Shown here: piece after piece, positions 9,255 to 11,768 of the stretch | Layout of the letters: each line of letters opens with the position of its first letter | Position numbering within the stretch: the stretch's first letter is position 1 | Virus record (IMG/VR): IMGVR_UViG_2703718808_000018 | Coordinates: 1 to 12,452 of that record | Reading direction: 5' to 3' (one strand) | DNA from: a virus | Taxonomy: Duplodnaviria; Heunggongvirae; Uroviricota; Caudoviricetes | DNA length: 12,452 nt | Notes under the pieces: model-generated | Databases searched by the model: none | Seen by the model: only the letters and a program-made list of their open reading frames with translations | Told to the model about the DNA's origin: nothing | Position numbers and translations under genes: made by a program

Positions 9255-9971
9255 ATGGAAACTGTATTTGACGCACTGAAAGCACTGAAAAGAGCCTCTT
9301 CACAGGTAGTGGCGGCCCGCCTTGGAATCAGCCGTGAAGATGCGGTCAACGAACTGTGGAAACTGAAGCGCCGCGGTGAAGCGGATAACAAGGGTTCGAT
9401 GTGGTGGCTGATTCAGGCTGGTGAAAGTGAACCGGTGTCACCGGTACCGAAAGTGACAGCGCAAATGCTGATTAAGGCGATTGAACAACATGGCCCACAA
9501 ACGGCAGATGAGCTGGCACTGATGTTCGGGATTACCTCCCGCCGGGCGAATTCATCGCTGGCCATGGCAATCAGCAAAGGGCGTCTGATTCGCGTGAATC
9601 AGGGCGGTAAATTTCGTTACTGCATACCGGGCGCTGATTTACCGGCAGAGCCGGAAGCTGCATCCGTAGCGGAAACAGATGGTAAAGCCTTTCCTCAGCC
9701 AGCAGGTGTTGCGTTACCAGTCCGGGAAACGACGACACAGGAAGAAATGAAAACAGAAATCGTGGAAGACATTGTGAAGTTACAGCCATCGGTCACCGAA
9801 ACGAAAGCAGATGACCTGATTCTACCATCGCTGCATGTGGCTAACCGCGAGCTGCGCCGGGCAAAAGGTCAGGTTCAGAAGTGGGAGCGTGTCTGCGCCG
9901 CGCTGCGGGAACTGAACAAACACAGGGATATTCTCCGGGATATTACCGCCACCAGAGAGCTGCTGCGGTGA
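9255..9971 (+). CDS. Winged-helix DNA-binding protein with two tandem wHTH-like modules and a C-terminal coiled coil (hypothetical)
   Basis: ATG at 9255 with GGAGG 8 nt upstream (the ORF track starts at TTG 9237). Residues ~1-55 and ~75-135 look like two repeats of a helix-turn-helix plus wing, and the C-terminus ([33 protein letters not shown]) is predicted helical. Confidence 0.75.
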
Positions 9972-10285
9972 GTGGCTGGAAGAAGTGGCGCTGGGCGGAA
10001 ATTATGATACTCCGGCAGTGTGCGGGAACGATGACAGTCGAAAGCATCGGCAGTCTGATTGGCCGTAGTGGGGCTGCCGTCAGGACGAAAGCGCGGGAAC
10101 TGGGTATCTGCATGATGTTACGGGGTGATTATCACCAGTCAGCCAAATGTTCACAGCGTGATATTGAGCTGGCGCGGCAACTGCATCAGCGTGGCGTACC
10201 CCGACGGGAAATTGCCGAAAAGTTTGGGATGAAGTTGGGCGCAGTGAATAACTACGTTTATTTCGACAGGAGGGTTCAGGCGTGA
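9968..10285 (+). CDS. Small putative DNA-binding protein (HTH-like segments), hypothetical
   Basis: Proposed GTG start at 9968 overlaps the preceding stop (GTGA); alternative ATG at 10004. The ORF track's start at 9881 lies inside the previous gene. C-terminal [19 protein letters not shown] is HTH-like. Stop at 10285 is firm. Confidence 0.55.
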
Positions 10286-10587
10286 GGGTGAGAATTTATA
10301 TCGCCGGTCCGATGACGGGATATGAAAATTTCAACCGTGAGGCGTTTCACAAGGCGGAAGAAGCACTGAAACAGGAAGGGCATACCGTATTAAATCCCGC
10401 AGTACTTCCGGACGGGCTGACTCAGCCACATTACATGGATATTTGCATGGCAATGATTCGTTGTGTGGATGCGGTTTATATGCTGAAAGGCTGGCAGCGG
10501 TCGGCAGGCGCTAAGGCAGAGCTGGCACTGGCGGAGAAACTGGGGCATGCAGTTATTTTCCAGGAGGCAACCAGTGAGCGAAATTAA
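10282..10587 (+). CDS. DUF4406-like (nucleoside 2-deoxyribosyltransferase-like fold) protein
   Basis: GTG start overlapping the preceding stop (GTGA), with AGGAGGG 7 nt upstream. The N-terminal IYIAGPMTG motif and overall size fit the DUF4406 small Rossmann-like proteins common in prophage nin regions. Confidence 0.75.
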   Translation: MRVRIYIAGPMTGYENFNREAFHKAEEALKQEGHTVLNPAVLPDGLTQPHYMDICMAMIRCVDAVYMLKGWQRSAGAKAELALAEKLGHAVIFQEATSERN

Positions 10588-10734
10588 TTACCAGGAACTA
10601 CGGCAGGTGAAAGAGAAAGCATAATCCAGAACTGAATAATTAAAATCAGCACTGTAAATAAAATTTAATCCTTAACCGGAGGGATTCCTGCACCCTCAGA
10701 ACATCAGGAGACCGCCCGGCAGGGCGGTAGTGAA

Positions 10735-10917
10735 ATGCGAAAGTTCAAAATAATTATTGAAACGGGAATCGCCGGTGGAGATTTCGAGGATGAATTCGAA
10801 GTGAATGATGATGCGACGCCTGATGAAATTCATAACGAAGCAAAAGAAATTTTCTTTAACTACTGCAATTACTCATATCACGAAATAAAAGACGAAGAGG
10901 AAGAACAAAATGGCTGA
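10735..10917 (+). CDS. Hypothetical very acidic small protein (60 aa, about 18 D/E versus 5 K/R)
   Basis: ORF with ATG at 10735. An AGGAG (10706-10710) is separated from the ATG by a 7-bp GC-rich hairpin (10711-10728). The ORF lies inside a segment bounded by 23-bp direct repeats. Confidence 0.5.
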   Translation: MRKFKIIIETGIAGGDFEDEFEVNDDATPDEIHNEAKEIFFNYCNYSYHEIKDEEEEQNG

Positions 10918-11086
10918 TTTTGGTTCAACTAAATACAACGTCAGTTTTGAAGAATGGCATGAACTGTTAATGGACTATGCAGAGTTACGTGGTGGCAGTG
11001 CTGCTGATGCTGAAGCATGGCGTGATGATTATGAAGCAGGAAAAACTCCGGTCGAAGCATATTGTGATGAGTGGGGCGATGAATGA
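10910..11086 (+). CDS. Hypothetical very acidic small protein (58 aa; MADFGSTKYNVSFEEWHELLMDYAELRGGSAADAEAWRDDYEAGKTPVEAYCDEWGDE), below the ORF-track cutoff
   Basis: Hand-translated. ATG at 10910 overlaps the stop of the previous acidic ORF (ATGGCTGA); GAAGAGG lies upstream; stop TGA at 11084-11086. Confidence 0.45.
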   Translation: MADFGSTKYNVSFEEWHELLMDYAELRGGSAADAEAWRDDYEAGKTPVEAYCDEWGDE

Positions 11087-11517
11087 GCGAGATTAATTAT
11101 CAGGAAGGGCATGAAACGGCTGGTCAGCCAACTGAAAAAAGCGAAGCCGGACTGCAAATTACCGGATAAGGCGATGGACTACCTGAAGCGAAACGGACTG
11201 ATAAACGAGGAGAATATTTTACGATGACCTGGCCTGAAGCGTTCATAACGGTAGGAATTGCAATGGCGGTGGCGCTGGTGGTGTATTCGATTTGCCGCTG
11301 GGGATAAAAACGGTTTGCGGGGAAAGAAGAGTTAAGTAGAATTGCTGCGGGTGCTTGAGGCTGTCTGCCTCGGGCATGCCGACGTAAGGCAGACAGAGAA
11401 AAGCCCCAGTTAACATTATGCGTCTTGCAGGACGCTTAACATTAATCTGAGGCCATATCTATGACTTGCACACTTAGATTAGCCTCTTATGCGCCGAAAG
11501 GCAAGGAGCAGCAGGCT

Positions 11518-11673
11518 ATGAAGCAGCAAAAGGCGATGCTAATCGCCCTGATCGTCATCTGTATTACCGTCGTTGTAACGGTAGTGGTAACGAGGAAAGA
11601 CCTCTGCGAGGTACGAATCCGAACCGGCCAGACGGAGGTCGCTGTCTTCACAGCTTACGAATCTGAGAAGTAA
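11518..11673 (+). CDS. hokD: Hok/Gef-family type I membrane toxin (HokD/RelF-like)
   Basis: 51-aa product MKQQKAMLIALIVICITVVVTVVVTRKDLCEVRIRTGQTEVAVFTAYESEK has the Hok/Gef signature: one transmembrane helix, then ...TRK.LCE.R.R.G..EVA.F.AYES.K. ATG at 11518 has AAGGAG upstream; the ORF track's longer form from 11461 is an in-frame upstream extension. Confidence 0.85.
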   Translation: MKQQKAMLIALIVICITVVVTVVVTRKDLCEVRIRTGQTEVAVFTAYESEK

Positions 11674-11741
11674 GAGACCCGGCGAGGGAGAAATCCCTCG
11701 CCACCTCTGATGTGTCAGGCATCCTCAACGCACCCGCACTT

Positions 11742-11768
11742 AACCCGCTTCTGCGGGTTTTGTTTTTT
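11742..11768 (+). terminator. Rho-independent terminator downstream of the hok-like gene
   Basis: AACCCGC-TTCT-GCGGGTT (7-bp stem) followed by TTGTTTTTT. A perfect 9-bp GC-rich hairpin with a GAAA loop (GGCGAGGGA-GAAA-TCCCTCGCC, 11681-11702) precedes it, just after the hok stop. Confidence 0.65.

What the first reader, a model, noticed from the sequence alone, without database searches (positions are those of the whole stretch)
10704..10737. Hairpin between the Shine-Dalgarno sequence and the start codon of the first acidic ORF
AGGAG (10706-10710) lies 24 nt upstream of ATG 10735, too far for direct initiation, but the intervening ACCGCCC-GGCA-GGGCGGT forms a 7-bp GC stem (10711-10728) that would bring the two to effective spacing. 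This is the arrangement described for phage T4 gene 38, where mRNA folding splices the ribosome binding site together, and it implies structure-dependent translation.
Basis: partly seen in the sequence, partly recalled or inferred. Interest (0 to 1): 0.45.

Follow-up and report, generated by a model that had tools for sequence, protein, structure and literature searches.

The report
Hairpin-split ribosome site in prophage cassette
A very stable 18-base RNA hairpin sits between the ribosome-binding sequence and the start codon of a small prophage gene. It belongs to a conserved, portable leader found in about half of complete E. coli genomes, and it most likely works like the rare "split" ribosome-binding sites of phage T4, though this is untested.

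Summary
The hairpin folds at about -14 kcal/mol.

It is not peculiar to this gene. The AGGAG(G/A)-hairpin unit is the core of a conserved intergenic cassette in E. coli lambdoid prophages. A query covering the cassette plus the first ORF matched 2715 of 5426 complete genomes. The unit occurs behind two different upstream contexts and in front of six unrelated gene families. A start codon always follows the stem by 5-8 nt, or by 10 nt where a second SD follows the stem.

The anatomy matches the T4 gene 38 and gene 25 sites, which I read from the T4 genome. AUG 10735 is well supported as the start. Nearly identical genes elsewhere use a plain RBS, and removing the hairpin here would leave a canonical AGGAG-6 nt-AUG.

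My best reading is a split RBS reconstituted by folding (confidence about 0.5). Three things limit it:
- There is no compensatory covariation; stem changes are G·U wobbles or rare breaks.
- The 3' arm (GGGCGGU) is itself SD-like at canonical spacing.
- There are no expression data.

No Rfam family, promoter, terminator or boxA matches. This is a new member of a known kind, of moderate interest.

The parts
10706..10710 (+). Shine-Dalgarno core AGGAG. It is AGGAGG in most relatives, and it directly abuts the stem.
   Evidence: AGGAG is invariant in all 126 instances found through an anchor that left it unconstrained. Rare variants are GGGAG and AGGGG. Duplex with the 16S 3' end is -7.4 kcal/mol, or -10.3 for AGGAGG. 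Mean P(unpaired) is 0.45-0.83 depending on the 5' end.
10711..10728 (+). Hairpin hp3: stem ACCGCCC (10711-10717) paired with GGGCGGT (10722-10728), loop GGCA (10718-10721). Most relatives have a C(GAAA)G tetraloop.
   Evidence: -14.1 kcal/mol here, -14.4 for the majority form. Variants are tabulated.
10729..10734 (+). A/G-rich 6-nt spacer AGUGAA between the stem and the AUG. It contains no SD.
   Evidence: Spacer length is 5-8 nt across the gene families served by the cassette. P(unpaired) is 0.6-0.8.
10735..10917 (+). First acidic ORF: a 60-aa DUF7167 / phrog_1997 protein that starts at ATG 10735.
   Evidence: The N-terminus MRKF is conserved, and the family profiles begin at residue 1-2.
10678..10697 (+). 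Upstream hairpin hp2 of the cassette. GGAGGG (an SD-like sequence) pairs with CCCUC (anti-SD-like) across the loop AUUCCUGCA.
   Evidence: variants include G·U changes and one register-shift compensation, GAGTG:CACTC. In other phages the same GGAGG serves as the ordinary SD of a phrog_4659 ORF.
10625..10705 (+). 5' part of the conserved intergenic cassette. It has a variable AT-rich segment with a weak hairpin (CUGA 10632-10635 / UCAG 10646-10649), then the conserved AAUCCUUAACCGGAGGGAUUCCUGCACCCUCAGAACAUC.
   Evidence: per-column variability. No promoter or terminator consensus. No Rfam family.
10910..11086 (+). Second acidic ORF (58 aa, phrog_519). Its start overlaps the stop of the first ORF (ATGGCTGA) and it has its own ordinary SD (GAGGAAG). 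It travels with the first ORF.
10574..10624 (+). A 16-codon stub (VSEINYQELRQVKEKA). It is the left copy of a repeated gene start that flanks the cassette plus two-ORF module. The right copy is at 11083-11169 (MSEINYQEG...).
   Evidence: The first 25 bases match at 21 of 25 by direct reading. Phage records annotate Ead/Ea22-like genes at this junction (H20-H29).

Best explanation
The 18-nt hairpin is a constitutively folded insert inside what is otherwise a canonical ribosome-binding site (AGGAG - [hairpin] - AGUGAA - AUG). Once the hairpin has folded, the SD lies at the 5' foot of the stem and the AUG lies 6 nt beyond the 3' foot. The 30S subunit can then engage both, with the helix looped out. 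This is the arrangement shown experimentally for T4 genes 38 and 25.

The SD-hairpin unit is not specific to this gene. It is the core of a conserved leader cassette in E. coli lambdoid prophages that has been recombined in front of several unrelated small early-operon genes.

Shown here: the structure, its stability, its positional constancy, its portability, and the start codon.
Inferred: that translation uses the upstream AGGAG and depends on the fold.
Unknown: why a hairpin is kept there at all. Candidates are an insulating or stabilising role, or a role as a homology patch for recombination.
For: 1. Anatomy and stability.
2. It has the same build as the T4 gene 38 and gene 25 sites read from NC_000866: the SD abuts a 7-8 bp stem with a 4-nt loop, and the AUG follows 4-8 nt later. 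Functional evidence for those sites is summarised in PMC3014915 and PMC7297116.
3. All 129 cassette contexts have a start codon 5-8 nt after the stem, or 10 nt where a second SD follows. This holds in front of DUF7167, DUF4014, DUF551-containing proteins and two unnamed families, with no SD in the spacer.
4. AGGAG is invariant in 126 instances collected without constraining it.
5. The common stem variants are C-to-U changes that keep G·U pairs on this strand only (17 and 11 copies). Pair-breaking variants occur in 1-3 copies. Every variant still folds in the same register, at -4.6 to -14.4 kcal/mol.
6. Natural control: DUF4014 genes that are 97% identical in DNA are preceded either by the SD-hairpin or by the plain RBS AAAGGAGAGTGAT-ATG. 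Deleting the hairpin in the window would give AGGAG-AGTGAA-ATG.
7. The start codon is confirmed by family profiles and a distant homologue.
8. The AUG and the spacer are predicted to be open.
Against: - No pair shows a change on both sides. The shuffle control is not exceeded, because the copies are too closely related. RNA-level selection on the stem is therefore suggested, not proven.
- The gene families do not need the hairpin. Homologues use plain RBSs.
- In front of a Q-antiterminator gene the cassette is followed by its own GGAG 6 nt before the AUG. The hairpin therefore persists where it does not bridge anything.
- The 3' arm GGGCGGU pairs with the anti-SD about as well as AGGAG does and sits at canonical spacing.
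- In full-length folds the SD is partly paired with CCCUC (P(unpaired) 0.45).
- No transcript, ribosome-profiling or reporter data were found.
Confidence: 0.5

Rival explanations
1. Masked RBS. The functional SD would be the SD-like 3' arm (GGGCGGU), which lies 5-8 nt before the AUG, and the hairpin would sequester it. Translation would then be low by default. It would switch on only when the stem is melted, for example by a ribosome terminating just upstream (translational coupling) or by a helicase or other factor.
For: The 3' arm pairs with the anti-SD at -8.0 kcal/mol, or -9.3 for the GGGUGGU variant, and has canonical spacing. In the second upstream context, the stop codon of a 70-aa ORF lies only 4 nt before the SD. 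A terminating ribosome there would cover the 5' arm.
Against: In the window's context the nearest upstream stops are at 10587 and 10624, more than 100 nt away. Nothing obvious would open a -14 kcal/mol C(GNRA)G-type hairpin there. A strong, free and invariant AGGAG(G) abuts the stem in every copy. The net cost of using the arm is about +6 kcal/mol.
Confidence: 0.15
2. The hairpin is mainly an mRNA-level stability, processing or insulating element. It might act as a barrier to exonucleases or RNase E, or as a buffer that makes the RBS independent of upstream sequence. The ribosome would merely tolerate it. SD-AUG bridging would be a side effect, not the selected function.
For: The hairpin and cassette persist in front of a Q gene that carries its own SD after the stem. 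The majority loop is an extra-stable C(GAAA)G, and T4 gene 38 has C(UUCG)G. The cassette has an AU-rich segment followed by two hairpins. Homologous genes function with plain RBSs.
Against: No processing data exist. The stem is too short for RNase III. This reading does not explain why the SD always touches the stem and why the AUG always follows within 5-8 nt. It is partly compatible with the main explanation rather than exclusive of it.
Confidence: 0.15
3. A DNA-level linker. The conserved 30-nt core would be kept and spread because it is the homology patch at which lambdoid prophages exchange accessory-gene modules, in the manner of Botstein-type linkers or T4 PeSL cassettes. The RNA fold would be incidental.
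For: Homology to other phages starts at window position 10704 in one class of relatives and stops at 10735 in another. The core is flanked by two kinds of upstream sequence and six kinds of downstream gene. There is a sharp identity break at the ATG. ArgO145 carries three cassette parts within 1.4 kb. PeSL precedent: PMC2839356.
Against: A pure homology patch would not need to be a perfect hairpin, to sit exactly between an SD and a start codon, or to tolerate preferentially those changes that keep G·U pairs on the coding strand. It is also compatible with an RNA function, because a functional RBS module is exactly what would survive shuffling.
Confidence: 0.1
4. The hairpin is a translational operator, or a boxB-like site bound by a phage or host RNA-binding protein that represses or times expression of the downstream gene.
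For: There is a GNRA tetraloop on a G-C stem in most copies, lying inside an RBS. It resembles boxB and coat-protein operators, by my own recall rather than a test.
Against: The loop is not conserved: GAAA, GGCA (in the window) and UAAA all occur. There is no boxA nearby and no Rfam match. The cassette occurs in prophages with different regulatory modules, Rac-like and Stx-type. No candidate binding protein co-occurs.
Confidence: 0.05

Closest known systems
Split (non-contiguous) translation initiation regions of phage T4 genes 38 and 25 (Gold 1988; Nivinskas et al. 1999; Malys & Nivinskas 2009; reviewed in PMC3014915 and PMC7297116)
   Same: The SD lies more than 20 nt from the AUG. A 7-8 bp stem with a 4-nt loop fills the excess. 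The SD abuts the 5' foot and the AUG lies a few nt after the 3' foot: 24 to 6 nt here, against 22 to 5 and 27 to 11 in T4. Stability is similar (-14 here against -13 kcal/mol for the gene 38 stem). The loops are extra-stable tetraloops, GAAA in most copies here and UUCG in gene 38.
   Different: This one is in temperate lambdoid prophages, not T-even phages. It is not tied to one gene: it is a portable unit in front of six gene families. It has not been tested experimentally. In T4 gene 38 the stem overlaps the last two SD bases, whereas here it starts right after the SD.
PeSL mobile regulatory cassettes of T4-type phages (Arbiol et al. 2010, PMC2839356; Comeau et al. 2014, PMC4122927)
   Same: Both are short, conserved intergenic motifs containing stem-loops, repeated among small accessory ORFs. 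Mosaic break-points fall at the motif, and several copies occur in one operon (ArgO145).
   Different: PeSLs are a strong early promoter plus a terminator stem-loop. This cassette has no sigma-70 promoter consensus and no U-tract terminator, and its hairpin lies inside an RBS.
E. coli thrS split ribosome-binding site (Sacerdot et al. 1998, cited in PMC7297116)
   Same: A stable hairpin interrupts the ribosome-binding region without blocking initiation.
   Different: In thrS the hairpin lies upstream of a normally spaced SD and is a protein (ThrRS) operator. Here the hairpin lies between the SD and the AUG, and no binding protein is known.
Hairpin-masked RBSs used for translational coupling (for example RNA-phage and operon junctions; from general knowledge)
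   Same: A G-C-rich stem includes an SD-like sequence (GGGCGGU) just before the AUG. In one context an upstream ORF stops 4 nt before the unit.
   Different: A second, stronger and unpaired SD sits immediately 5' of the stem. In the window there is no upstream translation within 100 nt.

Membership tests
Split TIR of the T4 gene 38/25 type | The SD sequence lies too far from the start codon for linear spacing (more than about 13 nt). | tested here: met
   There are 24 nt between AGGAG (ends 10710) and ATG 10735. In relatives the gap is 23-26 nt.
Split TIR of the T4 gene 38/25 type | A stable hairpin fills the excess spacing, with the SD at its 5' foot and the AUG within canonical distance of its 3' foot. 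| tested here: met
   The stem-loop is 18 nt at -14.1 kcal/mol, with 0 nt after the SD and 6 nt before the AUG. The T4 sites read for comparison have the same layout.
Split TIR of the T4 gene 38/25 type | There is no alternative SD at normal spacing that could serve instead. | tested here: inconclusive
   The spacer AGUGAA has no SD. The 3' arm GGGCGGU pairs with the anti-SD at -8.0 kcal/mol. It is locked in the stem, but it is a formal alternative.
Split TIR of the T4 gene 38/25 type | The hairpin is conserved among related phages. | tested here: met
   It is present in 129 distinct contexts, and 95.2% of cells pair among 24 distinct variants collected without constraining the stem.
Split TIR of the T4 gene 38/25 type | Compensatory base changes support the stem. 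| tested here: not met
   Zero pairs have a change on both sides. Six pairs vary on one side only (G·U or A-U). The shuffle control is not exceeded.
Split TIR of the T4 gene 38/25 type | Stem-destabilising mutations lower translation and compensatory mutations restore it. | not testable with these tools
   This requires reporter fusions, toeprinting or structure probing.
PeSL-type mobile regulatory cassette | A conserved intergenic motif is repeated among variable small ORFs, with mosaic break-points at the motif. | tested here: met
PeSL-type mobile regulatory cassette | It contains a strong sigma-70-type early promoter. | tested here: not met
   The consensus scan finds none in three versions of the cassette.
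PeSL-type mobile regulatory cassette | The stem-loop is a transcription terminator. | tested here: not met
   No U-tract follows the stem on either strand, and the terminator scan finds nothing.
Intrinsic terminator | A G-C stem is followed by a U-run. | tested here: not met
   AGUGAAAUG follows the stem, and the scan is negative. Unrelated hits to the same stem sequence that do have T-runs (L137, L156) are terminators in other phages.
Lambda-type nut site (boxA + boxB) | A boxA consensus lies upstream of a boxB hairpin with a conserved GNRA-like loop. | tested here: not met
   There is no boxA-like sequence near the hairpin. The loop varies: GAAA, GGCA and UAAA.
Any Rfam RNA family | A covariance-model match at the gathering score. 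| tested here: not met
   The only hits are SscA at E = 1.5 (17 bits against a gathering score of 60) and U2 at E = 7.4. Both are chance matches.

The most novel reading that the evidence does not exclude
The 30-nt SD-hairpin core, together with the larger leader around it, may be a lambdoid counterpart of the T4 PeSL cassettes. On this reading it is a portable, self-folding ribosome-binding module that gives any gene placed after it context-independent initiation. It would also serve as the short homology patch through which E. coli prophages shuffle accessory early genes. That would explain its presence in about half of E. coli genomes in front of six unrelated gene families.
Probability: 0.3. 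Interest if true: 0.55.

Novelty: new member of a known kind. Interest (0 to 1): 0.4.

Why it matters
Experimentally supported split ribosome-binding sites are very few: T4 genes 38 and 25, and in a different layout thrS. A third, independent example in temperate coliphages would show that the ribosome's tolerance of a looped-out helix between the SD and the AUG is used more widely. This one is abundant, highly conserved and naturally placed in front of several unrelated genes.

It also comes with a ready-made natural experiment: the same gene exists with and without the hairpin. Such starts are scored poorly by spacing-based start-site models, although the annotations examined here do call ATG 10735 and its equivalents. 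The portable-cassette aspect bears on how prophage accessory genes are shuffled.

Tried and rejected
- **Rfam.** The gathering search on the whole window found only hok/sok at 11349-11523. The permissive search on 10560-10800 found only chance hits.
- **Promoter and terminator scans.** Negative on the window and on two other cassette versions.
- **boxA search.** Negative.
- **Distant DUF7167 homologues, to look for covariation.** The genome-contig scan returned only four loci. The Pseudomonas and Bacilli-MAG homologues have ordinary RBSs and no hairpin. The hairpin therefore belongs to the cassette, not to the gene family.
- **E. coli K-12 CPS-53 (yfdT-ypdJ region).** No copy was found, so K-12 data sets cannot be applied there. 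The other K-12 prophages were not checked.
- **Other SD-hairpin-start arrangements.** A scan of 1.6 Mb of fetched prophage DNA found none beyond this cassette. It is not a general habit of these phages.
- **Literature.** String searches for the hairpin and cassette sequences and for DUF7167 returned no papers.
- **Alternative starts.** GTG 10730 is out of frame and opens a 7-codon ORF. ATT 10684 is in frame but lies 1 nt after GGAGG. The N-terminally extended gene calls (87-93 aa) in some records are read-through calls across the leader.
- **Predicted long-range pairing.** The pairing of 10676-10690 with codons 10-14 of the ORF was treated as incidental, because the same cassette serves other ORFs that lack the complementary sequence.

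Full report
**1. The observation**

The sequence reads ...CAUC AGGAG ACCGCCC GGCA GGGCGGU AGUGAA AUG CGA AAG....

| Element | Coordinates |
|---|---|
| AGGAG | 10706-10710 |
| 5' arm ACCGCCC | 10711-10717 |
| Loop GGCA | 10718-10721 |
| 3' arm GGGCGGU | 10722-10728 |
| Spacer AGUGAA | 10729-10734 |
| AUG | 10735-10737 |

The stem has six G-C pairs and one A-U pair. The hairpin forms in every fold I ran, whatever the flanks, with pairing probability close to 1. On its own it folds at -14.1 kcal/mol.

A single hairpin of this quality is not statistically remarkable in 12.4 kb. 28.5% of dinucleotide shuffles contain at least one perfect stem of 7 or more bp with at least 6 G-C pairs. Its significance comes from its position and its conservation.

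**2. Context in the window**

The window is a Rac-like lambdoid prophage. The rightward early operon reads as follows:

- YdaS-like and YdaT-like genes;
- a DnaT-domain replication protein;
- a lambda-P-like protein;
- a DUF1627 protein;
- an unassigned 134-aa ORF (9881-10285) with only weak HTH-type matches;
- a DUF4406 protein.

After that come a 16-codon stub (10574-10624, VSEINYQELRQVKEKA) and a 110-nt non-coding leader (10625-10734). Next is the 60-aa acidic DUF7167 / phrog_1997 ORF (10735-10917), followed by a 58-aa acidic ORF (10910-11086, phrog_519) whose start overlaps the first ORF's stop. A second stub that again starts MSEINYQE follows (11083-11169), and then a hok/sok locus (Rfam sok at 11349-11523).

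ATG 10735 is the true start. It is the first start codon after an in-frame stop at 10666. The Pfam and PHROG profiles begin at residue 1-2. The N-terminus MRKF is conserved, and a 44%-identical Pseudomonas homologue starts MRTF.

**3. The hairpin belongs to a conserved, portable cassette**

A distant blastn search with 10625-10920 matched 2715 of 5426 complete E. coli genomes at 5073 places. Many hits cover only query positions 1-111. That is the leader up to the first base of the ATG, followed by different genes (H71-H85; sequences).

Conversely, in Stx phage ArgO145 and its relatives, homology to the window starts at 10704, just before the SD. There the unit directly follows the stop codon of another gene...GAUUAAUGUC AGGAGG CCGCCC GAAA GGGCGG U AGUUAA AUG. 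The roughly 32-nt segment 10704-10735 is therefore the shared core of two classes of mosaic relatives.

I collected instances from IMG/VR with an anchor in the upstream hairpin, which left the SD and the hairpin unconstrained. I also used an anchor in the hairpin itself and a DUF4014 protein query. Together these gave 133 distinct 260-nt contexts.

Of these, 129 are the cassette, and all 129 have a start codon just after the stem. Among the 104 contexts with an ORF of at least 40 aa, the spacing was:

| Spacing after the stem | Contexts |
|---|---|
| 5 nt | 32 |
| 6 nt | 38 |
| 7 nt | 1 |
| 8 nt | 28 |
| 10 nt | 5 |

The remainder are truncated copies of the same genes. The downstream genes are:

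- DUF7167;
- DUF4014;
- a DUF551-containing family that starts MTELTKE;
- two unnamed families, starting MAELTKW and MQ[DE]IKENI;
- a Q antiterminator (PF06530).

Only the Q context has its own SD (GGAG, 6 nt before the AUG) after the stem. That accounts for the 10-nt class.

**4. Variation**

AGGAG is invariant in the 126 instances collected without constraining it. The base before it and the base after it both vary. The majority hairpin is GCCGCCC-GAAA-GGGCGGU, which has an extra-stable C(GAAA)G tetraloop. The window's ACCGCCC-GGCA-GGGCGGU is a minority form.

- The frequent stem variants are C-to-U changes that give G·U pairs: GCCGUCC in 17 copies and GCCGCCU in 11.
- Variants that break a pair are seen in 1-3 copies each.
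- Every variant still folds in the same register, at -4.6 to -14.4 kcal/mol.
- G·U pairs are tolerated only in RNA of this strand, which points to an RNA-level constraint.
- The formal count is not proof. Among 24 distinct variants, 95.2% of cells pair. Six pairs vary on one side, none on both sides, and the shuffle control is not exceeded.
- The family is simply too young for covariation. Distant DUF7167 homologues have plain RBSs, so they give no extra depth.

**5. Natural controls**

DUF4014 genes occur both with the cassette and with ordinary RBSs:

| Locus | Sequence before the start |
|---|---|
| L216 | AAAGGAG-AGUGAU-AUG |
| L213, L214, L218, L256 | GGGAG-UGAU-AUG |

L215 (hairpin) and L216 (plain) share 97.2% DNA identity across the ORF, but the 32 nt before the ATG are unrelated. 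Three conclusions follow:

- The two kinds of RBS are interchangeable in front of the same gene.
- The exchange point is at the start codon.
- Deleting the hairpin in the window would leave AGGAG-AGUGAA-AUG, a textbook RBS.

In addition, the 5' half of the cassette (...AAUCCUUAAC[C/U]GGAGG) serves elsewhere as the ordinary RBS of a 70-aa phrog_4659 ORF. That ORF's stop is followed by the SD-hairpin unit. ArgO145 carries three such pieces within 1.4 kb of one operon.

**6. Comparison with T4**

I read both T4 sites from NC_000866.

| Site | Sequence |
|---|---|
| T4 gene 38 | UAAGGAG-AGGGGC/UUCG/GCCCUU-CUAAAU-AUG (61-nt context -16.7 kcal/mol; stem alone -13.0) |
| T4 gene 25 | GAGG-CC-UCAAAGA/GUUC/UCUUUGA-GUUACUAUA-AUG |

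The review literature states that these structures reduce the spacing from 22 to 5 nt and from 27 to 11 nt. It also states that destabilising mutations lower translation (PMC3014915; PMC7297116).

The element here takes the spacing from 24 to 6 nt, with a 7-bp stem and a 4-nt loop. It has the same build.

**7. What it is not**

- No Rfam family matches.
- No sigma-70 promoter or intrinsic terminator consensus is present in three versions of the cassette.
- No boxA is present, and the loop is variable.
- No other SD-hairpin-start arrangement exists in 1.6 Mb of the fetched prophage DNA.
- No paper contains the sequence or mentions DUF7167.

**8. Mechanism**

My best-supported reading (about 0.5) is that the always-folded hairpin is looped out, so the 30S subunit sees AGGAG(G) and the AUG at roughly canonical distance. 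The structure, its positional constancy, its portability and the start codon are shown. Use of the upstream SD and dependence on the fold are inferred.

The main caveats are these:

- The 3' arm GGGCGGU is SD-like at canonical spacing: -8.0 kcal/mol against -7.4 for AGGAG and -10.3 for AGGAGG. A masked-RBS or coupling design is therefore conceivable. This applies especially where an upstream ORF stops 4 nt before the unit. In the window nothing is translated within 100 nt upstream.
- The Q context shows that the hairpin is kept even where it bridges nothing.
- The sharp mosaic boundaries suggest that the core also acts as, or simply is, a recombination linker. That is comparable to T4 PeSL cassettes (PMC2839356), although this cassette lacks the PeSL promoter and terminator.

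These roles are not mutually exclusive. A self-contained RBS module is exactly what would survive shuffling.

**9. Verdict**

The element is a new member of a known kind: a split translation initiation region in a temperate-phage lineage.

Interest is moderate (0.4). A specialist would not be astonished. Natural split RBSs are rare, however, and this one offers an unusually clean natural experiment.

Noticed in passing
window 11349-11523 (+), with ORF 11461-11673: There is a strong Rfam match to sok (RF01794, 113 bits), so a hok/sok-type toxin-antitoxin locus lies just downstream of the two acidic ORFs. Strong hairpins at 11681-11703 (-19.9 kcal/mol) and 11742-11760 follow it.
   Followed up: no
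window 10574-10624 and 11083-11169: Two short ORF stubs begin with nearly the same sequence: V/MSEINYQE, with 21 of the first 25 bases identical. They flank the cassette plus two-ORF module. This looks like the scar of a modular insertion or recombination inside the 5' end of an Ead/Ea22-like gene.
   Followed up: partly
window 10678-10697: Upstream hairpin hp2 pairs an SD-like GGAGGG with an anti-SD-like CCCUC. The same CCCUC can alternatively pair with the real SD (MFE). In other phages this GGAGG is the working SD of a 70-aa phrog_4659 ORF. One variant (L152, GAGUG:CACUC) keeps the pairing through a register shift.
   Followed up: partly
window 10676-10690 with 10763-10775: A long-range helix is predicted between the hp2 region (CCGG..GGGAUUCCUG) and codons 10-14 of the DUF7167 ORF (CGGGAAUCGCCGG, which encodes the conserved ETGIAGG motif). 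It would enclose the whole initiation region. I treated it as incidental, but it is specific to the DUF7167 context.
   Followed up: no
window 5878-5919: A perfect 17-bp AT-rich inverted repeat with a 7-nt loop (TACAATTAAAAACTGTT...AACAGTTTTTAATTGTA) lies between leftward ORFs. It could be an operator or a bidirectional terminator.
   Followed up: no
window 10735-10917 and 10910-11086: Two very acidic small proteins (DUF7167/phrog_1997 and phrog_519) of unknown function travel together in both the early-right and early-left operons of different lambdoid phages. Their small size and charge would fit a DNA-mimic or anti-defence role, but that is pure speculation.
   Followed up: no
L106, L136, L138, L139 (IMG/VR prophage contigs): The same cassette precedes a Q antiterminator gene (PF06530). 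There the hairpin is followed by a second, ordinary SD (GGAG, 6 nt before the AUG).
   Followed up: partly
L258 (phage Rac-SA53, KU052037.1 14656-14760): This cassette copy has two G·U pairs and a broken closing pair. It is followed about 30 nt later by an IS1 insertion that cuts off the downstream gene.
   Followed up: no
PP818812.1 (Actinobacillus phage vB_Apl-pPE4) and L126 (Collinsella MAG contig): Records assigned to non-enterobacterial hosts carry the E. coli-type sequence. PP818812.1 matches the cassette plus ORF DNA at 94% identity. L126 encodes the DUF7167 protein at 93% identity behind a near-identical cassette. This probably reflects host mis-assignment or mis-binning rather than real host range.
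   Followed up: no
L133 and other IMG/VR contexts of the ArgO145 type: In eight copies (six distinct contexts, including L133, L144 and L147), the MTELTKE-family ORF behind the hairpin starts with GTG instead of ATG (AAUGAAAA-GUG). An out-of-frame AUG lies 1 nt after the stem.
   Followed up: no
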